A stretch of DNA of 64,000 nt from Rhizaria sp. SCN 62-66 (lineage: Eukaryota). Positions 35,582 through 61,087 of this stretch are shown here, one piece after another; within the stretch, counting starts at the first letter, position 1; every line of letters begins with the position of its first letter. The stretch covers positions 1 to 64,000 of the forward strand of contig MEDY01000048.1 of the NCBI GenBank assembly GCA_001724265.1, in the 5' to 3' direction. The notes below the pieces were generated by a model. The model was not told the origin of the DNA and searched no databases. It saw only the letters and a program-made list of their open reading frames with translations. The position numbers and the translations under genes are program-made.

Positions 35582-35621
<40 letters not shown>

Positions 35622-38600: not shown

Positions 38601-39318
38601 GCCGGTACCGCTGAGCAACGCCTGCACCGAGGGCTCCGCGCCAACGGTCCCTAATGCCGCTACCGGCTCTCTTGTCAACGGCAGCGCCAGCGCCAGTGCT
38701 GCGTCTGCTGCGTCAGCGTTGGCTTCGTTGCAGGCGCAAATGGCCCAGTTGTCGCAGCTGCAGCAGCAGCTGAAGCAGCAGCATCAACAGCTTTCCAACC
38801 CCAGCGTCGCCGCTGCCGGCAAGAGCGCCAGCGTGACGTCTGCCGTGAGAGCGCTCAACGCGCAGCAGGCGGGCCAAGACCAGAGCCACGGGCTGCCGCC
38901 GTCATTCCTGCCCTCGATGTCTCTGCCGCTCACTCTGCCGTTGACAACGCCGCTGCTGGCGACGACGGCGCAGCAGCTGCCACAGTTCATGCCGACGACG
39001 ACGATGTCGACAACAACGCCTATGCCGTCGTTTGTCGGCGCGTCAACGACGCCGCTGCCGTTCAGCTCTGCGACGCCGACACCGACGCCTATGCCGCTGT
39101 TCTTGACTTCGACGACGCCGCTGCCGTTCGTCGGCGCGGCGACGCCCACTGCCCTGACGCCTTTTCTCCCCGGCCTCGGCGCCAGCGCTGGTGTCCCTGG
39201 CATTGCCGGCGCTGGTGTGAACGCTAGCGCTGGCTCCGGTGCTGCAACTGGGGCAACACCGACGCCGACGCCGCTGTCGTATGGCAACGTCAACAGCTTG
39301 CTTCAGCAGCAATCCCAG

Positions 39319-39367
<49 letters not shown>

Positions 39368-40991: not shown

Positions 40992-43900
40992 ATGAAACCC
41001 GTCCGCTACGTAGCTCTATCAAGCTCCCTCGACGTCGGGTTCTGGACTGCGTTCGTCAAGCGCAAGATCGAAGTTGACAAGCTTGACGAGCGCTCGCTGA
41101 ACCTGCTGGGGCTCTACACCACCACGTCTCGCCCGCAAATCCCCCCGCGTCTCACCCTCTCTGGAGACTTCTCCTACTCGCTCACATCATCGTACGTATC
41201 TCACTCGAAACAAAGCTAAACAAACGCATACCATACGAAAGAGACGCTCGTCTTACCAAATACGCGTGGTATGTACTCATATACTCTGTTTTTACTCTTT
41301 TTCTGCGTTTCCTCTCCCGCTTCAGTCCTGGCGCGATCAATGTGCCCGTGCCCGTGACCCTGCGCAACTACAACACGCGCGAGGGCTTCCTCGCCGCCCC
41401 GTTCTCCGCCTGGGACGCCGACCTCACCGCGCGCGCGTGGGCCGCCGTGCTCTCCGGCCGCGCCTTCCTCGCCCCGCACGTGCTGACGCAGCTGGGCGTG
41501 TTTGTGTTCGCCAACCTCAAGACGAACAAGTTCCTCTACCGCGTCAGCATGCCGTCTCTGCGCCCGTCGCACCTCGCAGTCTCCTACTGCGGCACGGACG
41601 CTGCCAGTGGCGACGCGGCGGCTGATAACGCGGGCATGGTGCCGATCAGCCAGGTTTTGACCGACAAGCAGTACAACGAGCTACTGAACGGTATCGCCTC
41701 ACTCTATAACAATACCACTGGCAACGCTACCGGTGACAGCTCGAACGTCAGCGCTACCGCGAGCGCCCCCGCTGCATTCATTGTGCACACCGACAACACT
41801 GGCGCCCTCTCCGTCTCCCCCTTTGCCACGCTCGCAATGCTCTCTGACATCACCCGCCACTACAACGCCGACGCCGCCGCGGCCGACGCAGGCGTTGCCG
41901 CAGTCGTCTGTGTGCCTGACTGGGCCAAGCCCGCCGCGCTCGCCCTCGCCGCCTCTCTCGCCAGCCGCAGCAACAACAACTGTGGCAGCGGCGGTCCCAA
42001 CAGCAGTAGGTTCATGCTCGGCTTCACGGACCCCGCGCTGCTAACCGACGGACCCGGTGCCCCGCTGCGCGCTCTCCTCGCAGCGGCCGCACTCGTGCTG
42101 CCCGCCGAGGCGCTCGCGGCGCTCACGGTCGTCTGCTTCAGGGACATCGTCAGCGCGGCGCAACACCGCGGCGTTATTGCAGCAACAACCAGCCCCGTGA
42201 GCAGTTGCAGCGAGGCAGCGGACGCTGCTGTGTCCGCCGTTGCCGAGGCCAAGTCGACCGTGTTCACAGCCTGCATCAGCGCCAGCTACCCCGCCGAGCT
42301 GGTCGCATACGCCCGCGCCTCCGCGCTCGCAGTTGTCTACGCCGTCTCTGAGGGCGCCAGTACAGCGGCTGAGGCATCCCGCATCATCAACAGTGCGGTG
42401 GCTGCCGCCATCAGCATCAGCGCCGGTAGCGCAGATGGCGCGGCGAACGCTGCCGTTCCGTCCCGCCGTGACGCGCCTGCGAGCTCCGACGACGTCGCCG
42501 TTGACGAGTCACGCGCTGTCGCGACCACGTTGCGTGGGTTCTGTTTAAACACCCCGATAAGCTCCCCCTTAGCCGGCCTGAACCTGTCCTCGGCGCTGGC
42601 CAAGTGGCCTGCAGAGGGCGTTTCGTACTGGGAAAGCGACGAGTCCGGACGCGCGCGGCCGCGGGTTGTGGACCTCAGTGCGCAGCTTGATAAGTACAAG
42701 ATTATGGAGACGAGTGTGGACCTCAATCTGAAGCTTATGAAGTGGAGGTTGCTACCTAATCTCAACCTTGACACCATTGCAAGCACAAAGTACGTCAAGC
42801 GCTGCATAAATCGTCTACGATATCAGGTCCTCTTATTTCAAAACTACATGCAATGCTCTTAAAACAAAATATAAATGTCAATTTCTAACAGTTGTGATTG
42901 TTGTTGTGAATAATATTGCACTGAACAGGGTTTTGCTGGTCGGCTCTGGCACACTGGGCTGTAACGTGGCGCGTGCACTGCTCGCCTGGGGCGTCCGCGA
43001 CTTCACCTTTATTGACAACGGCCGCGTCTCGGCCTCGAACCCGGTGCGCCAGTCGCTTTTCACCGCGCTGGACTGCGCAGACGGCGGCCGCCACAAAGCG
43101 CTCGCGGCGGCCATGGGGCTAAAGGCAATCTTTCCGGGGGTCCGCGCTAAGGCCGTGTCGCTCAGCATCCCGATGCCGGGCCACGGCGCCGGTACTGCCG
43201 CTGCCGCTGCTGCTGCTGCTTCGACCACTGCCACTGCCAGTGCTGGCGCGTCGACCGCGCAGCCGAAGCCGACCCGCGTCCCCGTCCCGATCCTCTGTCC
43301 CAACAACAGCACGAGTACCCCCACGGGCTCCGTCGCGGGTACCGTCGCGGGTACAGGTGGCGGCGGTGCGCAGGAGGCCGCGTGCGACGAGTACAACAGC
43401 GTCGAGTTCACTGTGTACCCGGACGTCGCCGCTGTGGCCGCCGACGCACTGTCCGCGCTCATCGCCGAGGCTGACGCGGTGTTCCTGCTCACCGACTCGC
43501 GCGAGTCGCGCTGGCTGCCGACGGTGCTCTGCCAGGCGCACGACAAGCTGTGCGTCAACGCGGCGATGGGCTTCGACAGCTTTGTGGTGATGCGCCACGG
43601 TGCGCGTCCGCTGGTCAAGGAGGAGAAGAAGAAAAAGATGTCCTCTCAGGGCGCCGATGATGCCGCCGCCAGCAGTAGTACCCGTGACGCCCACAGTCAC
43701 TTCACGAGCGACTTGGGCGTGGACTGGTCGCGGCGGCCTAACTTCGGGTGCTACTTCTGCGCCGACATCGTCACCCCGGCCAACTCGCTCAAGGACCGGA
43801 GCCTGGATCAGCAGTGCACGGTGACGCGGCCGGGGCTGTCGCTGGTGACGTCTGCGCTCGCGGCCGAGCTCGCGATTGCGGTGACGCAGCACCGGAAGCG

Positions 43901-44471
43901 TCACCGCGCCGCGCCTATCTCCACCGACACTAGCGGCCACCAGCACACCAACAGCAGCAGCAGCAGCAGTCGTAACGGCGGCTGTGCGAACAAGCGTGGC
44001 AACGGCAGCGGCAGTGGGCTGAATAGCAATGATGACGACGATAATGACGACGAGGACGACGACGATGACGAGGGCAATGACGACGGCGAGGCGACGGCGG
44101 GGCTGGGCGCGTTGCCGCAGCAGCTGCGCGGCTCGCTGTACACCCTGGCGCAGACTGCTATGCGTGGCGAGGCCCACGACGCGTGCTGCGGCTGCGGTGG
44201 CGCCGTCGTGCGCGCGGTGCGCGAACAGGGCGGTGCCGAGTTCATCGGCAAAGTGCTCCAGAACGCGAGCTTTCTGGACGAGTTCAGCGGGCTAGCCGAG
44301 ATCAGGCGGAAGGCGGAGGAGGCCGCGGCTGCCTGGGACCCCAGCGACTTTAGCGATGATGATGACGGCGAGAGTGATGGCAACGATGACGGTGATGGTG
44401 CCGGTGTCGGGAAGGACAAGAAGAAGGGCAAGGGCAAGAGGAGTGAGAGCGATGATTTCGATTTTGAGTAA
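40992..44471 (+). CDS. ATG7: ATG7, E1-like autophagy enzyme; 3 exons (40992-41191, 41326-42789, 42929-44471)
   Basis: SSLDVGFW..FVKRKIEVDKLDE; LRNYNTREGF; SVDLNLKLMKWRLLPNL; KVLLVGSGTLGC; VSASNPVRQSLF; SIPMPGH; FLLTDSRESRWLP; GFDSFVVMRHG; GCYFCAD; DRSLDQQCTVTRPG with the catalytic Cys. Confidence 0.97.
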
Positions 44472-45042: not shown

Positions 45043-45651
45043 GGACAACAGCTCGTGTACATAATAGATATACAGCTGTACGAGTAAAACAACCACGTAT
45101 GTTAGTCGTAAATAGATTGTTAAACCCGCACGAACATGACTGAGATATCGCCATTGGCCCGGGACTGTGTGAGAGACGGAGGGCCCTCTCAGGCCAGGAC
45201 ATGCGGGGACTATCCAGGCAAAAATGTACGATTTGTACTGTTACTTAGTACTAAAAGTACGAGTAACAGTGAAATAGGATGCTTGACGAACAGTGTTTAG
45301 TGACCTGACTCACACCACCGGCGATTATTAATATTATTTATACCAGTGTTTTCCAGGGATTTGCCTACTAGTCTACTTATACTTAGTACTTGTTGTACTT
45401 TTTTACAATACTAGTACTCATTGACATATTAATAGCATCTCATTGTACACGTACACTCATAGACTATTTTATCGGTCCAGCTGCTGCCTTGGCGGTTCTT
45501 CAACATAGCCATCAGCGGTCAAGTCGGGCATACGGAGACGACGAAATGCGCGACCATCTTATCGTCAAATATTGATATAGCAGTTAATTTAGAATGATTT
45601 TTCAAACTATATGTTCATTCTTTTATAACGTGCGTTGGTTCTTTTTCTAGA

Positions 45652-48556
45652 ATGTGGTCTCGTCGCGCAAACCTCGCCGACGAAGACGACAACTTCTCTG
45701 GTAATCCCCCCACCAGCACCCCGCCCGTGCCTGGCTCGGCCGTACCACCCGGTCGTCACCAAGGCGCCCCCGGCGACGATGACGAGGACACAGGCGGCGA
45801 TGGCGCCCCGTTTATGCAGTTCATGCCCCCAATGAACCGCAAGACGCTTTTCTCCAGCAACGACGCTGACATGTTGGCACAGCAAGACCAGTTTATGCGC
45901 TCGCGTGCGGCCCCCTCTGCGCACCTCGCGCGCCGGCCTGGCCCCCGGCTTGACCCCTCGTCAACAGCGCACTCCGCAGCGGGTATTACCGCATCGTCGC
46001 TTGCTGGGGATCCACTGGGCCAGCGCAGTGCCCCACATGTCACAGCGAGCCTCCCTCATGGCGCCTCTGCTGCGACCGCTGCGACTGCGAGTCAGTCTGC
46101 TGCTGCTGCAATGCGGCCGGCGCTGACTGACGCGACGCCAATGCTTGCTGCCACTGGCCCGATTAAGGAGAGGGTCCGGCCGCCCCGTTCCTCCAACATC
46201 AACGCTTCCTACAATAACAATACCGCCAATAGCATCGCTCAAAGCAACGGCCCTACCGACGACACAATGTTCACAGCTACCGCTGCTTCTGCTGCTGTTG
46301 CTGCTGCGGATGCCACCGCTCCGCAGACCGAGACAGATGCTCTGGTGCGCGTCCCGGTGACCGCGGCCGCCATCGCCGCCGCCGGTCTGAGCTCCCGTGT
46401 CAACCCGAGTCTGGGTCTGTCACACGCTCTAGGCGCAGGTGCCAACGCCGCCAGTGATAGCTCCAGCAGTCCGTCCTCGCGCGGGGCAGCTGTTGCGGGC
46501 GCCGCCGGCGGCTGCAACCCTGCCCGCTCGCTTCCCCGCGCGAGCCAGTCCCGCCCCGGCCGCAGCAGCAACCTCGGTCTTGACGACGATGCCGATTACG
46601 ACGAGGATGACTACGGCGAAGACGGCGCTGACCTCTGGCATAGCAGCGCGCCTTTCGCTCGCACAGCTGCTGCCTCTGCCGCTGGCGCTAGCGCTGCTGC
46701 TGCCGCTGCTGCCGCTGCTGCTGCTGCTGCTACTTCTGCTGATGCTGCTGCTGAGACTGCGGCTGCTGTGCCTGCGGGCCGGATGGCGCCGTCGGCAGTG
46801 CTGGTGCGGGCGCAGCGGCCGGCCGGAGGCGGCATTGTTGGCCTCAGCCGCGCTGCGCTTGACGCCGCGATTGTCGGACAGGTTTCGAAAAAAGACACGC
46901 CCTCCGAGGAGGAGCAGAGCGACACCACCGCCGCCGCCGCCGCTGCTGCCGCTACTGCTGCTGCTGCTGCTGCTTCTCAGACTAGCAGGCATGCGACTGT
47001 CGCAGCGAAGCGCGTTACATTCAGCGGCGACAACAACAACAACTGTGGTGATGGCAAGAGCGTGACTACCAACAACGCCGTGCTTGCAACGGCGAGTGAC
47101 CCTGCGCGGGAGGGCAGTGACACCGAGCAAGAGAGCGACGCGGAGGAGGCTGACATGCGCAAGCCCTTAGGCGGCCTTATCCCTCACTTCACTGGCGGTG
47201 GTAGCACGCGTACCGGAGGTACTGGCTCTGGCGGGGGCGCGAATACGCACTCTGAGGCGATTATGGCGCCCAACGGTGCAGTCACTGAGCGCACGCGTCC
47301 CGCCCGTGGCGCAAGCAAAGCCGGTCTAAGTACCGCTCTAAGCACCCCCCAGGCTCAGAGTCACACTCAGATTCCAACGCAGACCCAGAGTCAGGTCCAG
47401 AGTCATAGCCAGAGCCCCCCAAGTGCTACCAGTGGTGGGTCTATTCTCAGCGCCGCTACCAGGAAGCCGCGCGTGAAGGATCTTGTTGCACCTATCACAC
47501 AGCACCTCGAACATGAAGTTAAGCCGCGTGGAGTGGCTGCGCAGGAAGTAAAGCTGCTGTCGCAGGAAGTCAAGCCGCAGCCTCCGCATGGGTATGGTTT
47601 CCCAGTCGCTGAGTCGGTTTCTGCCGCAGTCAATAATCGCAACATCCGCAATGTGAAGAGCTCCACAAGTGCTGTTGCTGCTGCTGCTTCTGTTGCCGCG
47701 AGTGTTAATGCAGGTTTTACATCTGCTGCCAGTGCGACTGTCGGCGAGCGCACCCGTCCTGCCCGCAACAACAGCAACAGCAACAATAATATCAACAACG
47801 ACAACAACAACAACAATAACAGCAATAGTAGCAATAATAAGACGACGAGCGCGGTGACGCCTGCTATCCAGAGCTCTAACACTAACTCTAGCTCCACTAC
47901 GAGTGCAGGTGCGGGTGACAAGCCTCTGTCGGTCTTTGCGCAACAACGGCTTGCCCAACGCGCCAGCAGCAGCGACACCGCAGATGCAAGCAGTCTGAAT
48001 GTGAGTCGTATGATTCACCAGAGCTCTGCTTCTGTGCATGCACCCGCGAAGCAGCAGCGCTCGTTTGTGTCCCAACTGACCGCGACCGCATCGACCGTGC
48101 CGGTGGCCGAGATTGCTGCGTTCTCGCGCGAAAACGACGCCGCGCTGGCCCGCATGTCTGCTGCAGAGCTTGCGGCAGAGCAGGAGGAGCTGATGGCCTC
48201 GCTGTCGCCCGCTGTAATCGCGATGCTGCGGGCTCGTCGGGCGCCCAATCAGAGCAATATCGCTAACGCCATCGCTAACAATAACAATAACAACTCTGAC
48301 TCGACGACTACCAACGCCGGTGTCAATGCTAGTTCTAGCAGTGCGACCGAGTCGACTCCCGAGGATGCTGACGTTGATGACGGCGACGACGATGACGATA
48401 AGGGCGGCGGTGACATTGACGGCCACCGCGACGCCACTGCTGCCGCCGACGCTGCAGAGGCGTCTAAGTACCCCCTTACATCCTCTGGCGAAGTTGACTG
48501 GTACGCCGACCCGTACACTCTCGCAACCACTGCCCCTGAGGCACTTAAGCACACTT

Positions 48557-48588
<32 letters not shown>

Positions 48589-51500
48589 AGCACTCATGCA
48601 ACTGGCTTTGGTCCGAGTTCAATTGGCGATGCCACTGCCGCTGCCACCGCTGCTGCTGCGGCCGCCCGCGCCGCCGCTGCTTCGTGGATGCGGCCTGTCA
48701 CTGCCGAGGACGCCCGCTTGCTTGGCGACACCACCGCACCCTTAGCCGGTGTAAGTACCCCCTCAGACGGTGTAAGTTCCGGCGCGTCGGGAGGCATGCG
48801 TGTGCCCTTAGGCGGCGACATCTCGACACTGCCCACTGTCGCCGTCGCGAACTCCAACACACCCAACACTGGCCTTATGAACGCTAACGGTGGCGGTGTA
48901 CTTAGCGGCAGTGCGAGCGCGAGTGTCTCGGCTACGGAGGCGCGGATCGCTGCCGCTGTTGCTGCTGCTTCGGGTCTCACGTCGTCAGAAGCAGCGGCTT
49001 CCCGCGGTTTCACGCTCGCTGAGTTTAGCTACAGCCACAACATGATTAACCCTAACTCCGGGACACATATCAACTCTAACGCAAATGGCAGCACTATTAG
49101 TACGGCTGCTATCGCATCCTCCACTCGTTCTGACCCGTCTCAGCTCTCCCTCTCTGCCGCGGCCGCCGCCGTTTCCGCCGCCTACGGTCACACAGGCGGC
49201 GGCGGCGGTGTGTCAGAGCGCACTTTGCTCAGCGAGACCGGCCTCCCGGCTTCGCTGAGTCTCGACTGGGCCAACTGGCGCGTTGATCTGTCTGGCCTGC
49301 CTTTCGACGGGCTGGACCCTGCGACGGGCCTCCCGCTGCCGCCCGCCGCCGCCGCCGCCGCTGAGGCCGCCGCGGCCGCCGGCGCCCGCGAGCTGCTGCA
49401 CCACAGCGCTCAGGCGGCGCGGCCCGGCTACACGCTCAGCGAGCTGACTGACTTGGCCCGCAGCGCAGTCGCGGGGCAGAGGGCCCTGGCGCTGGCGGCG
49501 CTGACCGCCGTCGTAGCACGCGCGCGCAGGCACTTGTACCGCTATCCGATCATCGCCGCCGCGCAGCAGAAAGGGGAGGGGTCGCCCACCTCGCCTGTTT
49601 CAGCGTCCTCTTCAGTCCCCGCCGTCGTCGCCAGCGAGGTCGACTACTCGCACTTGGTGCTCAGCTACATGTTCTTGCGCGCGCGTGTGCCAACTCTGCT
49701 CCGCACGAGTCTCGATGACGTTTCGCCGACTGTGCGCGCGTCTGCGCTGTCGCTGCTGCGGGGGTGTTTGGACGCGGCACCCGGGGCTGACCCAACTGCG
49801 CCCGCCGCGGCCGCGGTCGCCAGCCTTAGTCGCCGGCTCCCGCAACCACCCCAGTCCTCACCCTCACCATCGCGATCGCAACCCCAGGCAGATGCACGGT
49901 CGCAGTTGCTGTTGCAGACGCAGTGGAGGCTTGACTCCGCAGCCGCCAGTGTCGCCGACACTGCGGCCTGGCATTCCCGGTGCACAAAGGACGGCGCCGG
50001 CGCTTTGTGGGGCGCGAGTGCTCTGTCACAGCAGAGTCTTGTCTACGCCAATGCAGCGTCGAACTTCGCTGCTGCTTATAACGCGAGCGTCAGCGACGAA
50101 GTGCGCACAGAGAACGATGCGAGTACGAATGCGGAGTCTACTGAGACTGAAACCGCAACCGCGAGCAGTGACCGTGAGCAGCTGCAGCAGCAGAAGGCAA
50201 CAATTGCATCGATGCTCTCTGTTGCTAACAACACGTGGCGCGGAGCATTAGCCCATGACTCCCTCCCTTGCCCTTTGCTCCCGTCGCCGACGCCGCAACT
50301 TGCTCTCTCTCTCACCTCGACCGCGACTGTGACTCACAACGCGCCTGCGACTACGAGCGGTGTGAGTAGTTTGAGCAATGTAGCCTTGCCGGTCCCCGCC
50401 CCTAGCTCCGTCGCGTTCGACCTCTGGGCCGGCCACCTGCTTCCCGCGGCCCGCCCCGCCGCCGCCGCCGCCGTCACCGCCCGTGCCCTCGCCCAATGCG
50501 CCGCGGACGAAGACGTTCCGGCCCGCTCCCGCGCGCTGCGCCGTCAGTTCGCCACGCTGGGAGGCGACGCAGAGGCGCAACTGCAGCGCCGGCTGCGTCG
50601 CGCGCGCGCCGCCACCGCGTCCAACCCGAACAATCCCGCCGCTTGCTCTAGCGCGAGTCAGGCTGCGAGCGAGACTGAGGCCGCTGCAGTGTCCGCTTCC
50701 GTCGCTTTGCTTCGCGAGACCCCTGAGGAGGTCGAGGCCGCCGGCGAAGCCGAGGCCGCCGCCGAGGCAGACGCTGCGCTGGGTGCGGTCGCCGGCGGCG
50801 AAGCGGCGTTGTCGCAGGACCAGTTAGCAACGTTTGACCTCGTAGCTTGCCTCTGCAATGAAGCGCTGCTGCCGCGGCTTCGGTACCTCGTCCAGTCAGC
50901 CGGCTCCACCGCCGCTGCCGCCATCGGCTCTAGCTCTAGTTCCGTGTCATCCTCAGTCAACGCGATGGCTTCAGCCGCGCTCGCGGAGCAAACCTCCGCG
51001 CTGCTGGCGCTAGACGCGGTCGCAGCGCACTCTGCGCGCGCGTGCGAGCTTGTATGGCATACGCCGCACTTGATTGACGCGCTCTGCTCCGCTCTCGCCG
51101 CGCCCGTCACGGCGAACAGCAGCACCACAACCAGCCCTGATACAGCCGCCACGCCAGTGCCTGCGAGTGCAGCTACGTTGGCGTCGCTGCCACTGTTGCG
51201 CCGTGACTTGGCTGCCCTGGGCTTGGCGACTCGGCTGTGCTCCTGGGAGCCCGCCGCTGCCGCCGAGCTCGCCGGCCGCCGCGGCGCTCTCGCACACGCG
51301 CTGCGCCACGTCGCCAACGCCGCCGCCGCAGTGGCGTCCCACTCCACGGCCCCTACAGCCGCTTTGACCGCGGACAACGCCGGCGCGGCGAGTGCGGTGG
51401 CGCGTGCGGCGGCGCTGTCGGCGGCATGCGCGTGCGGCGTCGCAGCGCTGCGGCTGTGGCGCGTGTGTCTGACCGCGGGCTCGGGCACGGCGCAGCTGCT

Positions 51501-54500
51501 GGCTGCGTTTCCGGCGCTTGTCGACATCACGCGTCGCCGCCCGCCGGCTGTGCTCTCGCCTGCGCTTATGCAACCTCTCTTCTCGAACACCGCCAACACT
51601 GACGCGGGCGCGAGCAGTAATAATATGCGCGCGAGTGTCCACGCCAGCGCTGTGTCGGTGCCGACGATGGCGCAAGCGCAGGCCCACGCCGCCACCGCGG
51701 CCGCGCGCCGGAGCGTCCGTCACCTCCAGCGCGCAGCTTGGGCCGTGCTGGAAGCCGCTCTGGCCCGGTCCACAGTCACTCTGCTGACGCAGGTCTCCTC
51801 GGCCGCAGGCGCAGACAGCGAGGCCGCCGCGGCGGTCGCAGCGGGCGGCGGCGACGGGCTCACGTTGTCGCATCTGGCACGCGTCTCTGAGCACGCATGG
51901 GACGCGTTGGCTGCGGAGCACGCCGCGGCCCCGCCGGTCTCCGTTCCTCTGTACGCGCGCTCGACACCTGGGAACAACAACACCACGAGCGAGGCTGACA
52001 CTGCGACTGCAACTGCGACGCAGATTGACTGCGGCACGGTGGGTTGGAGCGCAAGCGTCGCAGCCGTCGGATGGACTGGCGCCGATACACTCGCGCTCGC
52101 GGGACCCTTACATTTCCTGGCTACTTACATGACCACAGTCGCCGCGCACCCGCAGTTCGGCGCCCCCGCCCTCTCACTACCTGGAAATCGCAGCCCCGCC
52201 GCCGCCGCCGCCGCCACCAGTCAAAGCGAGGGCTCTAAGAAGATGACTGAAGACGCAACTCCTGACTCTGCGGCTATCGGCGGTGCCGCCGCTGGCGACA
52301 CGACTGAGGGCTTTTTGACCGCACTCGCAGCGCAGGCCGCGCGGGTCGAGAACGAGTACTTAGCACTTACATCAAGTTCCTCTTCGGAGCAACATGTAAA
52401 TACCCCCTTAGACGTGGTCAAGGTGCCGCTGTTGGCGCGCTTTGTTCTCACGCAAATTGCGGCGACGCACTCGAACTCGGATTCAGACTGCGCGAGCAGC
52501 AGCAACGGTGCCCTTGCGACATCTGTCATTGACGCCGTCACTAAGAACATTGCCTCAAACAAGAACACCACTGCGGTTACTGTTAGCGCTGCTCAGGTGA
52601 CGGAGACTAGGATCAGCGCGAATACGGCGTTGGTCCTGACTCCGGCCCCCGCGGCCCCTGCTCCTGAGTCTTCGCTTCCCTACCCTTCTTTGCCGTGCTC
52701 TGAGCCAACGCCCGCCGCCGTCGCCGCCGCCGCGCCCGCCGCCGCCGCCGCCTCCGCCGCCGCCGCCGAGTTGCTGCTGGCGGCCACGGAAAGCACTGCT
52801 ACTGCAAAGACGCGTGTCCGCGCGGCGCTTGCGGTGGCTGCGGCGCAGTCGCCTGTGCTGACGGATCTGAGGCTCGCGATCGCACGGTTGCTGCGGGCGC
52901 GGCGAGCACTTGCCTCTGCTGCCACCGCGGCTGCTTCTGTTTCTGCATCTACAACGCCAGCGACTGCAATTGCGCCGGAGACTTCTCAGAGCGGCGGGGC
53001 CACGAGCAGCAGCGCCTCTAGTTCGAGTGGCAACTCGCGCAGCAGTAACGCCACGCTGCTTTCGCCTGCTCTGTTCACGTCTTTGCTCGCAACTGCGCTC
53101 GGTGGCGGCTACGATGCGTGTGGCAAGTTAAGCCGCCTCCCGGCAGCTGCCAGTAGCGTCGACCGTAATAGTGCCTTGTTAGTCGCTGAATGCGCTCTGT
53201 CACTCAAGGAAAGTGCAATCACTGCGGAATGCATTCATTCGTCGAACGCGTGCAGTGCGAGTGCGAGCGCTTTGTTTGATGCAGTGAGTCGTTTGCAGTT
53301 AGCTTGCGCCGGCGCCGCTGCTGCTGTACCTGTTCTGTTCTCAGAAGGTCTGCCTGTCTCTGCGCTGTCGCTGGCGCTACGGATCACCCTCGACCCCACA
53401 GTCACGCGTCTCATGCGCACGCTCTGCAATCGCAACAGCACTCGCAACAACTACAGCGACCGCATCAGTGACAAGAACGCTAGCTGCCATCTCTCGGTGA
53501 ATGTTGACTCTGTTGCTGCTGGTTTAGCGAATGCTCCAGTGCCGACTGAGTGTGTGCGCACTCTCATCCCTGCGTCCCTGGCGCTGCTGGCTCTCGTCTC
53601 GGCGCACACTGGCACCGACTCCGGTGTCGGCGCCCGCGGGCCCCGCGCGCTGCGAGCGCTCATCACCGTGTGCGAGCGTGCGTTCGTCGCGGCGTCCGCA
53701 GTTGCGCTCAATCTCCACAACACGCACCACAGTCACGACGACAACAACAGGAACAATGTGAGTGGCATCGAGACTGAGAGCACTGAGGCTGAGAACGCGA
53801 GTGCGAGCGCGAGTGTGATTTGGGTGCCGCTGCGTCCGACACCACAATCACTGCTGCTGCCAGCGCTGCTGGACTCGGTCTCGCCAGGTGGCGGCCTATT
53901 AGCCGTCATCACGGCCGCCGCCGCCGCCCCCTCAGCGGGCCTCACCCCGGTACCCCTGGGCCGCAGCCGCAGTCACGGCGCAAACCGCACCGCTGCAGCT
54001 GCCGCAAGCCAACTTAGCGAGCGTAACAACGCCAAGACCGCGACTCCCATCGCCAGAGCGTTGATCGCGGCCGCGCACCTGCCTCTGTCCCCCGCCTTCG
54101 ACGTTCTCCTGCTGCCTTCGCTGCCCATCACGCCGCCGCCGCTGTCGGGCGCCGGCAACCTGGGGTGGGCGTTAACGCCGGTCGCCGCCACCGTCGCCGT
54201 CTGCGTCCGCGAGGCCGCCGAGGCCGAGGCGCGATCCGCGCGCGCCGCCGCCGCCGGGGCCCGGGCCGTCGCCGAGGTCGCGGCCGAGTTGTCCCGCGCC
54301 GCAAACGCTGTCGTGCTGGATGCCCGCGTTGTGGCGGCGCTTGAGGCTGAGCTTGCAGAGACCAAGGCGGCCGTGGCCAAGAGTGCCGCCGCGATGCGCG
54401 CCCGGGCCGAGGCCGGCCGCACGGCGAATCAGGCCGCGCTGAGGCTGCTGCTCGATGGCGTTGTTGTTGCGACGGCGCCTTTGGTCGCAGCTGCGAGGCG

Positions 54501-55803
54501 CGGGTTTGATTCTGGAGTAGTTACGACTGCCGAATCCAGTGTGGATACAGCTATGGTTGTCGTGAATGTTCCCGGGACTGACTTCACGCTCGCGATTTCG
54601 AACAACTCTCGCAAGATCAGTCAGACTGCGGAAAACGCGGCTTATGTCGCCGCGGGTAACACATGGCCTTCACGGTCCTTCGGCGCCCTGCTGGCGTCGC
54701 ACGCACATCGGGCTGTGATCGAGATCACACGCGCTCCTGGGCGTCTCGCTGCCGCTACAGTCACCCCCAACAACAGCAATACCGACAACAACCCTATCGC
54801 AAGCACCGAGACGAAGAAGGATGAAGGTGTGTTGTTGCGTTCATTAGTGGAGCAATTGCTGTTTGGTGTCGCTCTGGCTGGCCCTATCGCCACCGCCACC
54901 CGTCTAAGTACCCCCTTAGACACGGCGGTTTGTCTAAGTAGAACCTCACCGCGCTACTTAGTTGCAGACCTGGAGGCCCCGCGCCACACTGATGCCCCCT
55001 CTGTGCAACGCGTTTGGGGCTCCGTCTCGGCTAATCCCACCGCAAACAACAGTAACAACAACACTAGCGGTAATAATGCGGGCAACGCCAACAGCACACA
55101 GACCGCAGCCGGAGCGTCTTCACTGCAGCCCGCTGCCGCGGCCGCGGCGCTGCACTCGCGCGCGTACCAGCTCTTCGGTGACGCGCTTGAGAGCTTCCTT
55201 TCTGAAGGCGGTGGCGATACACTGGCGTCCGCGGCGCTGGCACCGCTGCTCTCATCGCTGTGCAGGGCCAGGGACTTCCGACGCCGCGTGTGGCGCGAGC
55301 TGATGCTGCCAGCTGCGCGGTCAGTGGTGCTGCCTACGGTCACTTCCGCGCGCGGCCACTCTGCCGGCGCCGATGCTGAGGCTGATGCTGAGGCTGATGC
55401 TGGCTGTGGGACTGCAGCGGCGACCGCTCACTGTCACTCTGGTTGCCGCAGTGTGATTCGCAGTCAGACGCCGAGGGCCACGCCGATCGCGTGGTACCTG
55501 GGCGCTGCTGGTGCGACCGCGATCTACGCGCCCGCCAGTGAAGTGATCGGCGTGAAAGCGCCGTTGGACGCCCCTGATGTCGTCGACCTGTGCTTGACTG
55601 CACTTAAGGGCGACGCCAACCGTGGCGTGTCGCTTCTCAAGCCCGCGACACAGCCACTGACGTACGCCGTGGCTGTTGCGCAGGCCGCGGCGAAGCTGTC
55701 GCTGCAGGGTGGCGTCGGTATGACTGTGGGGCAACTGGGGCTGGGGGAGAAGGCGAGGGTCGATGTCGAGGCGGCGGCCGAATCGAAGCTATATACGCTC
55801 TGA
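45652..55803 (+). CDS. RPAP1: RNA polymerase II-associated protein 1 (RPAP1/Rba50/IYO) homologue, 3383 aa, single long exon
   Basis: RPAP1_N-type EIAAFSRENDAALARMSAAELAAEQEELMASLSPAVIAMLR (~48109-48235); RPAP1_C-type RVDLSG...LLHHSAQAARPGYTLSELTDLARSAVAGQRALAL (~49280-49500); later LLPRLRYL and AAHSARACELVW..P.L helical segments. Confidence 0.85.
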
Positions 55804-56143
55804 ATTGAGAAATTATATAACTATACGAGAAGTACTGTACGGATACTTAATTTTAATTTATTACTTAAATACACACACACATGCACTTTATTCTTCCATA
55901 CGATTGTGTCCGTGAAAGTAATTTCGCCTCAAGAGTTACTGTGACTGCTGGCGGCAACCCTGAACGGACCGGACGAGAGAAGTGATGAAATGCCGGTAAC
56001 TTTGAAGGAGCAAAAGTCATCCTATATTCCGATAACTAAAGTCCGCAACGAAAACCAGAAATCAAAACTAACAACATATTCTAAATATTTAACAAATTCT
56101 CTATTGCTGTCTTGCTTGTTTCCCTTTACGTGCAGGACCGAAG

Positions 56144-56839
56144 ATGAACCTCGTGACGGCCACGACCCCCTACTCCCAAGCCGTGAAATCGTTCTTAGAG
56201 AACCCGCGTGAAGTGTACGCGGTGCGGTTCATCCGTCCCGACGTCGGCAAGGAGCGCAGCCCCGTGCTGAAGCACGTCTACAAGGTCGCCTCGGTCACCC
56301 AGCAGGTCACCATGGGCGCCCTCGTCTCCGGTGTCATGTTCGGTGGCTTCTCCACCCTCATGGGCCTTTTCGCTGCCAGCGCCATGGCGTCTGACCCTAC
56401 TAAGACTGTCACCATGACTGACAGCTTTAAGGACATGATGCAGACCCTGCGCCGCCGTGCGCGCTCGGGCTTCCGCAGTGGCGCCATGATCGGCGCCGCA
56501 TTCGCCTTCACAGACCCCATCTCCGACACCGTACGCACACTTACCGTTCTCATATATTTATCACGTCAACAACTACCTCTTGTCTTAGGAACGTCACATG
56601 TTAATATACAATCTATTGTGCGTCTTTTCTCACACTGTTTCTCTTTATGTGCCTTGCTTTGCGCGCGACATGCTGTTGCGTAGTATTTCGGCCACTCGCC
56701 TTTCATGCAGGGCTTCTCCGCAGGCCTCCTCGTCGGCCTCCGCGGCGGACCCATGATGACGCTCGGCTCTGGCATCGGTTTCGGCATGTTCGGCTACGTT
56801 ATTGAAGCCTCTGGTATCCGCGAGAAGATGGGCTTCTGA
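56144..56839 (+). CDS. Tim17/Tim22/Tim23-family mitochondrial translocase, Tim22-like; exons 56144-56530 and 56684-56839
   Basis: GxxxG-rich TM helices: GALVSGVMFGGFSTLMGLFAAS, SGFRSGAMIGAAF, GFSAGLLVGLRGGPMMTLGSGIGFGMFGYVIE. Intron GTACGC..TAG of 153 nt, phase 0. Confidence 0.8.
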
Positions 56840-57702
56840 GAAGCTCGTCAGGCACGACATGAATCGGGTGAGTCACAGTAAGTGACTCGGGTACGTGCCT
56901 CGTGTGTGGTGGCAATGCTCTCTCTCTTTCTCTCTCGATTTTTCATAAGCGGGGGTTGACTTTGTCAAGGCGTTGACACTTTGCATCCGGAGTGAGATAC
57001 TCACGATTTAATTTCGTACTGAGCAACGACATCAAGCCCCTCCTCGTCAGAAAGCGCGCATCCGTCCCCACTCGTGTTGAGTAGTATTATTATTTGTAAC
57101 ATGTAGCCCATTTTTGAACGCGACTTTGCGCAGTAGTCACCAGAACTTGCTGTGCATATTAAGTTGTCGTGGTTGATTTCGCTCGCTCAGGTCAACTAAT
57201 GGGGCCAGTTGGTAAGCTTTGCGACGCTCGCTACTTGTACATATAATACACTTCAAGACAACTGCAAGGATAGATTGTGCTTCCAGGGTTCACAGTTTGG
57301 GGCAAAGACCGATTTTTTATGGTATTCTGTTGAATTTAATCGCTGAACTGTCTACCCCTATTAACTTAAGTCATTCTTCTCGTCACACGTGATCATTCTT
57401 TTTCACATGAATGAAGGAGGGAGTAATCCTTTCAGTCTATCAAAATTAGACTTGACCGATACGCCGATCACATCTTGTTGCGCCTCTGATACAAGCAAAT
57501 ACGTGATAAAATAGAACACCGGCGTGTTAATTCGCAAATTTCGATACTGTTGTACATGTCAATTGAATGGTATTTTCTGAAATATTGTTTTGGATGCACT
57601 TATCTCGAAAATGCAAAACAACACAACCCTCTAACACAACCCTCTCAAATGCGCCCTAAATGTGGCTTCCACCTCACTTGACACATCACAGACAGTCTCA
57701 AC

Positions 57703-58077
57703 ATGGGCAACTGTCGTACGTAATCATTTTCTACGACTAAATCTATCCTGATTATCACAAATTCACATCATTTACGCATATGTTTCGCCATTTTTTCATC
57801 CCTCGAGCAGCCACTCACCTTCTCCTCGTTCTCGTATCTGTGTCCGTTTCTGTTAGATGGCCACCACAACGGTGTCGCCCACGGCCACGGCCACCCCCCG
57901 GGCCACCGTCCCGGAAGCCCCAGGGGCGGGCACGGCCACGGCGGCCACGGCTCCGGCCACGGCCACGGCCACGGCCATGGCGGCGGCCACGGTGGTCCCG
58001 GCGGCCCCGGCGGCCCCGGCGGCCACGGCGGCCACGGCTCCGGTCACGGCCACGGCGGTCCTGGTGGCCGGCATTAA
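57703..58077 (+). CDS. 77-aa His/Gly-rich peptide with N-terminal MGNC; exons 57703-57715 and 57857-58077
   Basis: ATGGGCAACTGTC|GTACGT...TTAG|ATGGCCAC gives MGNCHGHHNGVAHGHGHPPGHRPGSPRGGHGHGGHGSGHGHGHGHGGGHGGPGGPGGPGGHGGHGSGHGHGGPGGRH*. The 141-nt intron has the typical donor. This frame is not in the supplied ORF track. Confidence 0.85.
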
Positions 58078-59091
58078 GTAACTCAGTAGACTGCCGCAAC
58101 AAGGTCTGCGTGAACGCGCTCTGAAGGAGAGCTTCGCAACGCAACGGTTGTTGTCTCTGAAATACGTGGTTGTCTCTGATGACACGTATCAACGACAGCC
58201 ACAGCCAACACTTGAAACAAAATCGGCACAATATGCGCTACATGTCAAATACTCGTCTGTGCGTATTAGCCGTCGTTCCTGTGAGTGGTTGTCACCACCG
58301 AGAATAAGATTGAACTGACTTGATAACTGATTCGTGAAAAACAAGCAAGATGACTCATTTGCACCGACTCGAGTTTATTGATTGATTTCCCAGTGACACA
58401 GAATAGCCGCAACTCAGAACGTGCGACAGTCTGCTATTCTGTTGTTGCGTAAAACTTGTAATGTAACAGAGCGGTGCGTTGACACGTTAGAAGATCGCAT
58501 GAGCGGACTACGTGGATATGAAGCTTCTCTCTTGCATCTGTGCTCCTATATTGAAGAAATATGGATGACAAAAGTGTTTATAGACTAGATTCGTCTTTAT
58601 GAATACAAAAATATCCGTCTTTCTCACTCAGAAGTTTGGAACATCTCAGTGTAACGTTTACTTAAAGCTGTTTTATGCGTCGTAGAAATAACGACACAAG
58701 TACAAAGCGGATATTTCTGACTTGGATAAGTCTGCAGTTACGTCAGTCAAGTTGTTTCGGATGTGAAACACTCGTTTGTTCAGTGCTCGACTATGTTTAA
58801 GGGAATGTGGTGAAACGCGGACTTGGCTGGCGGCACGGCGCCAGTGGCGAGAAGACGAGGGGTCACCCGAGGCCGGTTTCAGAACGAATTAGGCTCGATA
58901 TCTGATCTGTCGAATGACAATAACATAGCGTTGTTGCTATCATACATCTTGTTTTGTTTCTTATTTGTTTATTTTGAGTCACTTTCCCCCGATATTGGCT
59001 GCTGCATCCCGACTCACGCACACGCCTTTCTGACCGCTCCTCCCCTCTCGCCTTCTTCTTTTCCTTGCTCCTGCAGAGCAACTAGTTTCCC

Positions 59092-61087
59092 ATGGGCAAC
59101 GAGATGAGCGGTCGTACGTACAAAGCACTGTTTTAATGCTATTCTTTAAGTTCAAATCCTCTCAACGTCATGTTATATCTTAGATATCTCTGGCGGAAAC
59201 CTTGGCTTTCTGCACTGTTGACTCCGAACCCCAACTCTTCTTCCCGAACGTTTCCACACCAAGCGATCCTGATACAATCATTACCAACCCGCTCACATCC
59301 ACGCTCCCTACATCCCTCTCTACTCGTCCCTAGACGGCGGCGACGACCACGGTCATTCACATGGCGGTGTTCCTTGCGACGGCAACCATGGTGCCCCGGC
59401 GCCGGCCCCGGCCTCCCACGGCCACAGCCACGGCCCCGGCCAGCCGCCGTGCCACGGCCACGGCCCTGCGCCCGCCCCCGCGCCCGCCGCGACCCACTCA
59501 CACGGCGGCAAGGCCTGCAACCACAACCACGGCGGGCCCGCGCCCGCGGCCTCGCATGGCCACTCCCACGGAGGGAGCGGCGGCGGCGCCGGCCACGGTC
59601 ACTCGCATGGCGGCAACGATGGCGGCCACGGGCACTCGCACAACGGTGTCCCTTGCCACGGACACGGCGGCGCTGGCGAAGGCATGGATCCCCACATGGC
59701 CCGCAAGCTCCGCGCGGTCGAGCTCTTCATGAAGACTATGATGCTCCCTAAGTACGAGAAAATACTATTGACGACTCAATTCTTATCGAATTATTTATTA
59801 GATATAATATGGTTAATCTTGTATTATATACGCACGCTTATTTTTATTTCGTGATTCACTCATATATGTCTTCATTTCTCCTGTTATATCCCAGGCTCCC
59901 CGTTGTGTTCGCTCACTTCCACAAGACGGACAAGACGGCCGAGCAGCTCGCCGCCGCGGGCTCCACCGTCTCCGGCGGCGTCACCGTGCCCAACAATGCC
60001 GACGAGAGTATGACCCGTGACGAGTTCCGCGAGGTTGTCTACGCTATCAACTCCGCCACGGCGCGCGCCGACCGCCACGGGGTGGTGCGCCCCAGTGAGG
60101 TCGCTGACATGGAGAAGATGTTCCTGGGTATGATGGGCATCAAGCCGGCGTCGGATGATGACGACACGGTTAAGATCCCGCAGCCGCTGTTCTTGCGCTT
60201 TGCCGGGATGATCATGCAGCGCATTGCGCTCCAGCGCTACGACGCCATCCCCTATCTCCTCGAGGTTCGTTTACTAACTCTTTAACAAGGATATCTCGCA
60301 TCTCGTTAAACAAGCCGCTATTCCCTAGATTTGAATGAGCTATACTATACGTCTTAAAAGATTTAACATTGTATTAATCTTGTGATGCTTTTTTGTTTTT
60401 TTCTTCTCAACAGGAGTGGGGCCTGCCACCTAAGTGCCCCAAGATCCCCCTGACTCCCTCGGACGACATGCGCGAGCGCATCACTGCCTACGTCTATGAC
60501 CAGGTCGTCCCTTTCCTCACCACGTTCATCCTCGCTGCCGTCGAGGAGAACAAGGACTCCGAGTCCGCCGCCGCCCGCTGCGGCCTTACGGCCGTCGTCG
60601 ACAGCATTCTCGCTGGGCTGGAGGAGGCCGACACCGAGTTCAGCAAGCAGGCCGCTGCTGTCGTCAAGCGCATCCCTCAGGAGGAGGTGGTCAAGGCGCT
60701 CAAGGTCGACGAGAGCGATAAGGACGCGCACCCGCGTCTCGTCGTCTTCCACGTCGTCACTCAGGTACGCACGACTATATATATTCACTACATGTCGTTT
60801 TTGGCATTCTTCAGAATCCTAAAGCTAAAGGAAACTGTTTTAGCAACAGAACCACCTGGTAAACCCTGATTTTATGTTTAATTCTACGTGATTGTGACAT
60901 CATGTAATCGCTCACCGATGTCTCTCTCACCCCCTTGTATTGCTTCTGCGACTGACTGTAGATGCTGACGATGCTGCTGGGCATGGAGCCGGAGACGGCG
61001 AAGTTTGTCTTCAAGCGCTGGGGCATCGAGTTTGTGGTGCGCTTCTTCGATGACGCCATCCACGCTGACGGCACGGCGCAGCAGTAA
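59092..61087 (+). CDS. ~428-aa protein: MGN start, HGHSHGG/PCHGH repeat region, then an unknown helical domain; 5 exons (59092-59113, 59334-59751, 59895-60264, 60414-60764, 60962-61087)
   Basis: Four GT-AG introns join in frame (1287 nt in total): MGNEMSGHGGDDHGHSHGGVPCDGNHG...HGHSHNGVPCHGHGG...FMKTMMLPKLPVVF...YLLEEWGLP...VVTQMLTMLLG...GTAQQ*. Confidence 0.82.

What the first reader, a model, noticed from the sequence alone, without database searches (positions are those of the whole stretch)
57703..58077. Hidden 77-aa lipid-anchored His/Gly peptide gene (MGNC plus 20 His and ~37 Gly)
Seen: a 13-nt first coding exon (MGNC plus one base) spliced to an exon made almost entirely of GGC/CAC codons. 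The product is about 26% His and about 48% Gly with no folded domain. The ORF track shows only the wrong frames here. Established: Gly2 is the N-myristoylation site and a nearby Cys is a common palmitoylation site. Dictyostelium hisactophilin is a myristoylated, MGN-starting His-rich pH sensor, and HG repeats bind Zn/Ni/Cu. Inference: this is a minimal membrane-tethered pH or metal sensor/chelator, or a shepherin-like Gly/His antimicrobial peptide that unusually lacks a signal peptide.
Basis: partly seen in the sequence, partly recalled or inferred. Interest (0 to 1): 0.78.

Follow-up and report, generated by a model that had tools for sequence, protein, structure and literature searches.

The report
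Probable lipid-anchored histidine-glycine microprotein gene
A tiny two-exon gene in an unidentified microbial eukaryote probably encodes a 77-residue, fat-anchored chain of histidines and glycines that could hold metal ions or sense acidity at a membrane, but its splice has not been seen directly.

Summary
The sequence is as described. A 13-nt coding exon (57703-57715) is followed by a 141-nt GTACGT...TTAG intron. Exon 2 (57857-58077) is a degenerate GGC/CAC repeat. Joined, they give 77 aa with 37 Gly and 20 His.

The splice 57715^57857 was not observed. Contigs of spliced RNA from one wastewater sample cover only 58020-58518.

The strongest support is the next gene downstream, 'gene B' (59092-61087, + strand). 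It starts with the same ATGGGCAAC in a 22-nt exon that ends in the same GTCGTACGT, and it also has a phase-1 intron that splits a His codon. That junction is RNA-confirmed. Its next exon is His/Gly-rich, and its frame is fixed by a conserved C-terminal domain. Both 9-mers occur twice in 64 kb, only at these two starts. Synonymous codon use favours the His/Gly frame.

No homologue, Pfam family or solved structure matches the peptide.

Best reading: a real microprotein, lipid-anchored through Gly2 and Cys4, with a disordered HxH-rich tail that binds metals and changes charge with pH. The gene model is likely (about 0.7). The function is inferred. Kinship with hisactophilin or shepherin is not supported.

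The parts
57661..57702 (+). ATG-free stretch before the start codon; inferred short 5' UTR. The transcription start must lie here for MGNC to be the first AUG.
   Evidence: upstream ATGs at 57649 (10-codon uORF) and 57660 (would read into the Pro/Arg frame). No RNA evidence.
57703..57715 (+). Coding exon 1: ATG GGC AAC TGT C (MGNC plus the first base of His5)
   Evidence: ATGGGCAAC occurs only here and at 59092. The splice is not observed.
57716..57856 (+). Putative phase-1 intron, 141 nt, GTACGT...polypyrimidine...TTAG
   Evidence: The donor and length match the RNA-confirmed neighbouring introns (GTACGC 153 nt, GTACGT 220 nt, GTTCGT 149 nt, GTACGC 197 nt). It holds the only GTACG on the + strand between 56891 and 59114.
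57857..58077 (+). Coding exon 2: His/Gly-rich tail (72 codons plus the split His codon) and TAA stop
   Evidence: RNA contigs cover 58020-58077.
57927..58058 (+). Degenerate tandem repeat core (periods 6, 9 and 27; CGGCCA-type units)
58078..58518 (+). 3' UTR (at least this long)
   Evidence: X1 records 2 and 3 and X2 records 9 and 10 cover 58020-58374 and 58368-58518. The strand is not shown by contigs.
59092..59113 (+). Gene B coding exon 1 (MGNEMSG plus one base), the look-alike mini-exon
   Evidence: (joint 59113^59334, X1, side 39)
59114..59333 (+). Gene B intron 1, 220 nt, phase 1, RNA-confirmed
59334..59751 (+). Gene B exon 2: His/Gly/Pro/Ala-rich region (26 His and 14 HxH in the first 150 aa), then the start of the conserved domain
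59895..61087 (+). Gene B exons 3-5 (59895-60264, 60414-60764, 60962-61087): conserved helical domain
   Evidence: joints 60262^60412 and 60762^60960, cut +2; 429 aa, one terminal stop

Best explanation
This is a real, very small protein-coding gene on the + strand. Transcription starts within about 40 nt upstream of 57703. A 141-nt phase-1 intron is removed, which creates the His5 codon. The mRNA encodes a 77-residue protein that starts MGNC.

The following steps are inferred. Met1 is removed and N-myristoyltransferase acylates Gly2. A palmitoyl-transferase then acylates Cys4. The peptide is thereby fixed to the cytosolic face of a membrane, as in SH4-type dual-acylated proteins.

The remaining ~72 residues are a disordered Gly/His chain with no acidic residues, 8 HGH motifs and 2 HGGH motifs. 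That chain would chelate Zn, Ni or Cu at neutral pH. It would turn from about +3 at pH 7.4 to about +13 at pH 6, making it a membrane-proximal metal buffer or pH-dependent polycation.

It resembles a free-standing version of the N-terminal module of the neighbouring gene B. Gene B has an MGN start and a His-rich region, followed by a possibly EF-hand-like helical domain.

Shown: the sequence anatomy, transcription of the 3' part, the parallel with gene B, and the codon bias. Inferred: the splice, translation, both acylations, and the metal and pH behaviour.
For: Anatomy and composition are exact.

Runs X1 and X2 hold spliced RNA of this organism. Their contigs skip four GT..AG introns of the neighbouring genes. 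They also cover 58020-58518, the end of the ORF plus the 3' UTR, as a unit separate from both neighbours.

Gene B, 1.0 kb downstream on the same strand, has the same start ATGGGCAAC and the same exon end and donor GTCGTACGT. It also has a phase-1 intron that splits a His codon (C|AC there, C|AT here) and a His/Gly-rich second exon. Its junction 59113^59334 is seen in RNA. Its frame is fixed by a conserved domain found in 8 other proteins.

Each 9-mer occurs twice in 64 kb, only at these two starts. The expected count is 0.45, and 9 of 100 shuffles reach 2 for one motif alone.

The chance of an ATG-Gly start with a phase-1 GTACG donor upstream of the acceptor was 3 in 5000 shuffles.

Synonymous codon fit (mean ln RSCU, against 4700 reference codons of the window) is +0.416 for His/Gly. 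It is +0.190 for Ala/Thr and -0.179 for Pro/Arg. The three frames of gene B's His-rich exon rank the same way, at 0.269, 0.178 and -0.096. The Pro/Arg frame would need the rare CCA for 16 of 23 Pro and CGG for 29 of 30 Arg.

Unspliced, the ATG gives only MGNCRT and a stop.

The computed net charge is +3.0 at pH 7.4, +12.7 at pH 6.0 and +21 at pH 5.0. There are 0 acidic and 3 hydrophobic residues.

Tandem HxH tracts with a small middle residue are zinc-binding in ZIP and ZnT transporters (PMC13027442, passages). Dual N-terminal acylation alone targets Leishmania HASPB to the plasma membrane (PMC3491706, passages).
Against: The splice 57715^57857 and the exon-1 region were not seen in any RNA contig.

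All six frames are open over the repeat, so openness means nothing.

Upstream ATGs at 57649 and 57660 restrict the permissible transcription start to a 42-nt stretch. Gene B has no ATG in the 150 nt or more before its start.

Ala/Thr-rich low complexity is typical of this organism's proteins (21% Ala and 8% Thr in the reference set). The Ala/Thr frame begins with an ATG exactly at 57857.

The minus-strand Arg/Gly frame scores nearly as well on codon use (0.362), though it has no ATG.

No homologue was found: 0 of 5299 candidates of near length and 0 of 8000 longer candidates.

BLASTP against gene B's His-rich exon is not significant (E 0.066). No other similarity to gene B was found outside the repeats.

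The RNA evidence comes from one sample of one study, and contigs do not show the strand.

Position 6 is Gly rather than the Ser or Thr preferred for myristoylation (recalled rule).
Confidence: 0.5

Rival explanations
1. The locus is transcribed but is not a functional His/Gly gene. It is either an expressed GC-rich microsatellite (a non-coding RNA) or a decayed partial duplicate of gene B's 5' end. The duplicate would comprise the promoter, the MGN mini-exon, the intron and the His-rich exon. Its frame stays open only because the repeat has no stops in any frame.
For: All six frames are open. The region is a degenerate tandem repeat. No homologues exist. The 5' architecture is copied from or shared with gene B, but the rest of gene B is absent. 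The junction is unobserved.
Against: The gene has its own stop at the end of the repeat and a transcribed 3' UTR of at least 440 nt. The codon bias equals or exceeds that of gene B's true frame. The start, donor, phase and acceptor are all intact although the introns and UTRs share no detectable similarity. That argues for old divergence with the coding features preserved.
Confidence: 0.25
2. The gene model and frame are right, but the product is not a cytosolic metal or pH device. Instead it is exported by the non-classical route used by dual-acylated HASPB. It then acts outside the cell as a Gly/His-rich, metal-activated antimicrobial or surface-coat peptide (shepherin-like).
For: The Gly/His composition resembles shepherin I, whose antifungal activity is induced by Zn(II) (PMC10698721, abstract as listed). 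HASPB reaches the cell surface without a signal peptide and needs dual acylation for trafficking (PMC3491706, passages).
Against: There is no signal peptide or propeptide. No evidence of export exists. The neighbour with the same N-terminal design carries an intracellular-type helical domain that weakly resembles EF-hand proteins.
Confidence: 0.15
3. The translated product is the 74-aa Ala/Thr-rich frame that starts at ATG 57857. This would come from a transcript starting inside the supposed intron, or from leaky scanning.
For: An ATG sits exactly at 57857, and the frame runs to 58081. Ala/Thr-rich low complexity is abundant in this organism's proteins.
Against: The codon fit is lower (0.190 against 0.416). 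The same offset frame in gene B, known to be non-coding, scores 0.178. This reading does not explain the MGN mini-exon, donor and phase shared with gene B.
Confidence: 0.07
4. An unspliced transcript is translated from ATG ~57780 in the Pro/Arg frame (within the open frame 57741-58124). This would give a hydrophobic leader followed by a Pro/Arg-rich peptide, like secreted PR-rich antimicrobial peptides.
For: The frame is open and contains an ATG followed by a hydrophobic stretch.
Against: It has the worst codon fit (-0.179). It uses the rare CCA for 16 of 23 Pro and CGG for 29 of 30 Arg. The 'leader' is simply the intron's polypyrimidine tract read as codons.
Confidence: 0.03

Closest known systems
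Gene B of this window and its family (P0002, P0004-P0009): His-rich region plus a conserved ~300-aa helical domain; no Pfam family
   Same: Same strand, 1.0 kb away. Identical ATGGGCAAC start, identical GTCGTACGT exon end and donor, a phase-1 intron that splits a His codon, and a His/Gly-rich second exon read with the same codons.
   Different: The peptide has no helical domain (tblastn best E 4.3). It lacks the family's HGHSHGGKPCHGHG-type Cys-containing motif. Its introns and UTRs do not align with gene B's.
Hisactophilin (Dictyostelium), a myristoylated His-rich pH switch
   Same: An N-terminal Met-Gly for myristoylation and a very high His content that titrates near pH 6-7. Hisactophilin has 31 His and a pH-regulated myristoyl switch (preprint 10.64898/2026.07.16.738941, passages).
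   Different: Hisactophilin is a folded protein whose hydrophobic core sequesters the myristoyl group. This peptide has 3 hydrophobic residues in 77, is 48% Gly and has no acidic residues. It also has an extra Cys4. No sequence match to any solved structure was found. The resemblance is in function only, not in family.
Leishmania HASPB and other SH4-type dual-acylated hydrophilic repeat proteins
   Same: An N-terminal Met-Gly with a nearby Cys, followed by a hydrophilic, repetitive, non-globular body. In HASPB dual acylation of the first 18 residues suffices for plasma-membrane targeting (PMC3491706, passages).
   Different: The repeat chemistry is unrelated (His/Gly here). No sequence relation was tested or expected. 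The organism differs, since cis-spliced introns are used here.
Tandem HxH tracts of ZIP and ZnT zinc transporters (METTL9 'ANGST HxH' motifs)
   Same: Alternating His with a small middle residue (8 HGH here). Such tracts bind zinc and lie in disordered regions (PMC13027442, passages).
   Different: In the transporters they are loops or tails of multi-pass membrane proteins. Here the tract would be the whole protein, held on the membrane by lipids.
Shepherin I (Capsella), a Gly/His-rich antimicrobial peptide
   Same: Gly- and His-rich, and Zn(II)-responsive (PMC10698721, abstract as listed).
   Different: As I recall, shepherins are cut from a secreted precursor. This ORF has no signal peptide and starts with an acylation motif.

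Membership tests
N-myristoylated, dual-acylated (SH4-type) proteins | Initiator Met followed by Gly2 | tested here: met
   ATG GGC at 57703
N-myristoylated, dual-acylated (SH4-type) proteins | Residues 3-7 compatible with N-myristoyltransferase (PROSITE PS00008 pattern, recalled from memory) | tested here: met
   G-N-C-H-G-H fits the recalled pattern by eye. Position 6 is Gly, allowed but weaker than Ser or Thr. No predictor was run.
N-myristoylated, dual-acylated (SH4-type) proteins | Cys within the first few residues as a palmitoylation site | tested here: met
   Cys4, the only Cys in the peptide
N-myristoylated, dual-acylated (SH4-type) proteins | This ATG is the one used (first AUG of a spliced mRNA) | tested here: inconclusive
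   The junction and 5' end were not seen in RNA contigs. Upstream ATGs lie at 57649 and 57660.
N-myristoylated, dual-acylated (SH4-type) proteins | Lipids actually attached | not testable with these tools
   Needs metabolic labelling or mass spectrometry
Hisactophilin | Folded domain with a hydrophobic core that sequesters the myristoyl group | tested here: not met
   3 hydrophobic residues in 77, and 48% Gly. 0 matches to solved-structure sequences at E up to 10.
Hisactophilin | Met-Gly start and a high His content | tested here: met
   MGN start and 20 His in 77 residues
Shepherin-like Gly/His antimicrobial peptides | Secretory precursor with a signal peptide (recalled) | tested here: not met
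   The N-terminus is MGNC followed by His/Gly, with no hydrophobic stretch
Gene B family (His-rich region plus conserved helical domain) | Conserved ~300-aa helical domain | tested here: not met
   tblastn of gene B against the rest of the window gave a best E of 4.3, with nothing near 57703-59000
Gene B family (His-rich region plus conserved helical domain) | Repeats of the HGHSHGGKPCHGHG type | tested here: not met
   BLASTP against gene B exon 2 gave a best E of 0.066 over 15 residues. There is no Cys after Cys4.
Gene B family (His-rich region plus conserved helical domain) | MGN mini-exon, phase-1 intron, His/Gly-rich exon (seen in gene B of this window only) | tested here: met
Zinc-binding tandem HxH tracts | Adjoining HxH motifs with a small middle residue in a disordered region | tested here: met
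   8 HGH and 2 HGGH. Motif definition from PMC13027442.
Zinc-binding tandem HxH tracts | Measured metal binding | not testable with these tools
   Needs ITC, IMAC or ICP-MS

The most novel reading that the evidence does not exclude
The peptide is a minimal, free-standing lipid-anchored poly-His/Gly device. It would have two lipids at residues 2 and 4 and a 72-residue HxH chain with no fold. Together with the neighbouring myristoylated His-rich, possibly EF-hand-like protein, it would form a two-gene module for buffering or handing over zinc (or for sensing pH) at a membrane surface in a protist. No such microprotein class turned up in my searches. The homologue, Pfam and solved-structure searches were empty. 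The paper searches listed nothing comparable.
Probability: 0.3. Interest if true: 0.65.

Novelty: new variant of a known kind. Interest (0 to 1): 0.5.

Why it matters
If real, this would be an unusually pure case of a functional microprotein. It would be a dual-lipid anchor followed only by a metal-binding, pH-titratable His/Gly chain. Gene callers would miss it because its first coding exon is 13 nt and the repeat is open in all six frames.

It would give a simple natural model for how membrane-tethered HxH tracts handle zinc or respond to pH. Otherwise such tracts are known as loops of zinc transporters.

It also points to an uncharacterised eukaryotic family, gene B and its relatives, that couples such tracts to a conserved helical domain.

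If it is only a transcribed repeat or a relic of duplication, the finding is ordinary.

Tried and rejected
**RNA test of the junction**
- No RNA holder is on record for this stretch.
- I laid the contigs of X1, X2 (one sample) and X3 on 56000-61000.
- X1 and X2 proved to hold spliced RNA, but no contig lies on 57002-57836 and no joint 57715^57857 is listed.
- The repeat breaks the contigs at 58020, and 128 pieces and 62 loose ends were not shown. This is neither support nor refutation.
- The X2 joints 57894->57957 and 58023->59470 have sides of only 20-21 nt inside repeats. I set them aside as cross-joins between repeats.

**Polymorphism test on the peptide gene**
- X3 record 14 (56000-57935) has 21 differences, of which only 14 are listed. 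None of those 14 lies after 57564.
- The other 7 are not shown, so no conclusion is possible.

**Homologues of the peptide**
- 0 of 5299 candidates of near length scored, and 0 of 8000 longer candidates.
- Composition correction may hide true relatives.
- There was no Pfam family and no match to solved-structure sequences at E up to 10.

**Related loci**
- The metagenome scan returned only L001, which is identical to window 58499-60327 and does not reach the peptide gene.
- The scans of genome contigs and viral contigs found none.
- The first attempt, with the 9-sequence alignment, had no conserved stretch to search with.

- No whole genome is held for this window.
- Earlier findings of the scan: nothing, by place, by relatives or by words.

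**Similarity between the two loci**
- The DNA alignment of the two 5' regions is uninformative outside the start and donor.
- blastn finds only the His/Gly repeats.

**Fold of the gene B domain**
- Foldseek found nothing at E <= 0.001.
- VIA-align's best Z was 6.6, mostly to EF-hand proteins. That is below the level the tool advises trusting, so it is a lead only.
- The Atlas search by features gave scores of 0.89-0.91, which are uninformative.
- The profile against PDB sequences gave nothing below E 0.4.

**Other**
- Rfam over 56800-59100 gave only a chance-level CRISPR-DR22 match (21.6 bits against a gathering score of 50).
- The organism was not identified.

Full report
**1. What is in the sequence**

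The window is eukaryotic. Coding stretches have 60-69% G+C and are separated by spacers of about 50% G+C. RNA-derived contigs skip short GT..AG introns.

- ATGGGCAACTGTC lies at 57703-57715.
- A 141-nt interval follows, starting GTACGT and ending in a pyrimidine-rich tract and TTAG (57716-57856).
- An exon runs from 57857 to the TAA at 58075-58077.

Joined in a script, the CDS is 234 nt and encodes 77 aa. The composition is 37 Gly, 20 His, 8 Pro, 3 Arg, 3 Ser and 2 Asn, with one each of Met, Cys, Val and Ala. The main codons are GGC (29) and CAC (17). Unspliced, the ATG would give six codons and a stop.

The exon is a degenerate tandem repeat with periods of 6, 9 and 27. All six frames are open across it, so an open frame here proves nothing.

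The His/Gly frame has no ATG of its own. The Ala/Thr frame starts with an ATG exactly at 57857. The Pro/Arg frame is reachable from an ATG at 57660 after splicing, or from about 57780 without splicing.

**2. Transcription**

No run on record as RNA holds the stretch. Even so, the contigs of X1 and X2 are clearly from spliced RNA of this organism or a strain about 1% different. X1 and X2 are two runs of one wastewater sample, from a library labelled RNA-Seq.

These contigs join:
- 56530^56684 (X1 only)
- 59113^59334 (X1 only)
- 60262^60412 (X1 and X2)
- 60762^60960 (X1 and X2)

All four joints are GT..AG. X3 contigs carry the introns and are DNA.

The RNA contigs cover 58020-58374 and 58368-58518. 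That is the last 58 nt of the ORF plus at least 440 nt of 3' UTR. They form a block of their own between the upstream gene (covered 56244-56880) and gene B (covered from about 59075).

The contigs break at 58020, inside the repeat. Nothing lies on the exon-1 and intron region. The decisive junction 57715^57857 is therefore neither seen nor excluded. Contigs do not give the strand.

**3. The neighbour gene is the key evidence**

Junction 59113^59334 belongs to the next gene downstream on the same strand, which I call gene B. Its first coding exon is 22 nt (59092-59113, reading MGNEMSG plus one base). It ends ...GGTC|GTACGT.

The 220-nt intron is in phase 1 and splits a His codon (C|AC). The second exon is His/Gly/Pro/Ala-rich, with 26 His and 14 HxH in the first 150 residues.

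This is the same design as the reported gene: MGN, an exon ending ...TGTC|GTACGT, a phase-1 intron, a split His codon (C|AT), and a His/Gly-rich exon.

ATGGGCAAC and GTCGTACGT each occur exactly twice in the 64-kb window, on either strand, and only at these two gene starts. The expected count is 0.45, and 9 of 100 shuffles give two or more copies of one motif anywhere.

Gene B's frame is not in doubt. It runs on into a conserved domain, and with the junctions used the CDS gives 429 aa and a single terminal stop. An exhaustive search with exon 3 found 9 proteins. One is the window's own ORF, one is 68% identical, and seven are 32-45% identical. The relatives align across the inferred exon 2/3 junction.

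So 1.0 kb away there is a verified precedent in this genome for three things: a coding mini-exon starting MGN, this donor and phase, and CAC/GGC repeats read as His-Gly.

**4. Frame tests**

I built a reference of 4700 codons from the window's other coding regions and scored synonymous codon fit.

| Frame | Peptide gene, mean ln RSCU | Same offset in gene B's His-rich exon |
|---|---|---|
| His/Gly (+) | +0.416 | 0.269 (true frame) |
| Ala/Thr (+) | +0.190 | 0.178 |
| Pro/Arg (+) | -0.179 | -0.096 |
| Arg/Gly (-) | +0.362 | not scored |

The Arg/Gly minus frame has no ATG in its 140-aa open stretch.

The Pro/Arg frame would need CCA for 16 of 23 Pro and CGG for 29 of 30 Arg. The reference shares of those codons are 0.11 and 0.19.

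The only GTACG on the + strand between 56891 and 59114 is the proposed donor.

In 5000 dinucleotide shuffles of the 500 nt before the acceptor, an ATG with up to 11 sense codons and a phase-1 GTACG donor appeared in 160. One with Gly2 as well appeared in 3.

**5. Points against**

- Upstream ATGs at 57649 and 57660 mean the transcription start must fall in a 42-nt stretch for MGNC to be the first AUG. Gene B has no ATG in the 150 nt or more before its start.
- Ala/Thr-rich low complexity is common in this organism's proteins.
- No homologue of the peptide was found among 5299 candidates of near length or 8000 longer ones. Composition correction makes such searches weak.
- The peptide is not significantly similar to gene B's His-rich exon (E 0.066).
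- There is no relic of gene B's domain downstream of it.
- The two 5' regions do not align outside the start and donor. If the two genes share an origin, it is old.

**6. What it most likely does**

The N-terminus MGNCHGH fits the recalled myristoylation pattern (PROSITE PS00008, from memory; no predictor was run). It carries the peptide's only Cys at position 4. This is the arrangement of SH4-type dual-acylated proteins. In Leishmania HASPB, dual acylation of the first 18 residues suffices for plasma-membrane targeting (PMC3491706, passages).

The remaining 72 residues have no acidic residues and 3 hydrophobic ones, so no fold is expected. They contain 8 HGH and 2 HGGH motifs. The computed net charge rises from +3.0 at pH 7.4 to +12.7 at pH 6.0 and +21 at pH 5.0.

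Tandem HxH tracts with a small middle residue are the zinc-binding, disordered tracts of ZIP and ZnT transporters (PMC13027442, passages).

I therefore propose a lipid-anchored, disordered metal-binding or pH-titratable chain on the cytosolic face of a membrane. It would be functionally akin to the N-terminal module of gene B. All steps after transcription are inferred.

**7. Comparison with known systems**

- **Hisactophilin** shares the MG start, the His richness and the pH range. It is a folded protein that hides its myristate in a hydrophobic core (preprint 10.64898/2026.07.16.738941, passages). This peptide cannot do that, so it is an analogue and not a family member.
- **Shepherin I** shares the Gly/His composition and the response to Zn (PMC10698721, abstract as listed). 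As I recall it is secreted, and this ORF has no signal peptide.
- **HASP-type proteins** share the architecture of a dual acyl anchor plus hydrophilic repeats, but not the chemistry.
- **Gene B's family** shares the 5' design, but its defining domain is absent here.

I file the peptide as a new variant of known kinds: dual-acylated low-complexity proteins and HxH metal-binding tracts.

**8. Gene B in passing**

Gene B and its relatives have no Pfam family. Most relatives carry HGHSHGGKPCHGHG-type repeats at the N-terminus, and two carry them at the C-terminus as well or instead.

An AlphaFold model of P0008 is confident, with mean pLDDT 88.6 and pTM 0.84. Foldseek finds nothing at E <= 0.001. 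VIA-align's best rows are mostly EF-hand proteins over model residues about 14-145. They include AtCBL2, secretagogin, centrin, calaxin, CIB2, GCAP3 and S100A8/A9. The best Z is 6.6, below the level the tool advises trusting. An EF-hand-like fold is a lead only.

**9. Verdict**

The gene model is likely (about 0.7), mainly because of the RNA-verified look-alike next door. The function is inferred, which brings the whole explanation to 0.5. Direct reads across 57715^57857 would settle the model.

Noticed in passing
window 59092-61087 (+); proteins P0002-P0009: Gene B belongs to a small eukaryotic family with no Pfam match. Members combine repeats of the HGHSHGGKPCHGHG type (mostly N-terminal, in two members C-terminal) with a conserved ~300-aa helical domain. 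The N-terminal half of that domain weakly resembles EF-hand pairs (best Z 6.6). Gene B itself starts MGNEMSG, which looks like a myristoylation start.
   Followed up: partly
window 59114-60961: Between the window and the DNA contigs of run X3, all 17 listed substitutions and one 2-nt insertion within gene B fall in its four introns (709 nt). None falls in about 1150 covered exon bases. This is a clean sign of purifying selection and of strain-level diversity in the environment.
   Followed up: partly
window 56141-56839 (+): A small two-exon gene (56141-56530 and 56684-56839) encodes a Gly/Ala-rich protein that is probably membrane-bound. Its 153-nt intron is RNA-confirmed (joint 56530^56684). 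It has no Pfam family at E <= 0.01.
   Followed up: partly
window 22624-40482 (+) and 45598-55803 (+): Two giant intron-free open frames. One is 5952 aa and contains a PP2C domain. The other is 3401 aa and contains RPAP1 N- and C-terminal domains. Both are swollen by Ala, Ser, Thr and Asn low-complexity runs. ATG7 (41087-44471), a papain-type protease and an EF-hand ORF are also in the window.
   Followed up: partly
window 57620-57645: A perfect 13-nt direct repeat (AACACAACCCTCT, two copies) lies 58 nt upstream of the start codon. It may be a promoter element or chance. The weak CRISPR-DR22 Rfam match over it (21.6 bits, E 0.22) is noise.
   Followed up: no
L001 (= window 58499-60327): A public metagenome contig is 100% identical to this part of the window over 1829 bases. 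RNA of the same organism or a near strain occurs in a wastewater sample. The organism itself was not identified.
   Followed up: partly
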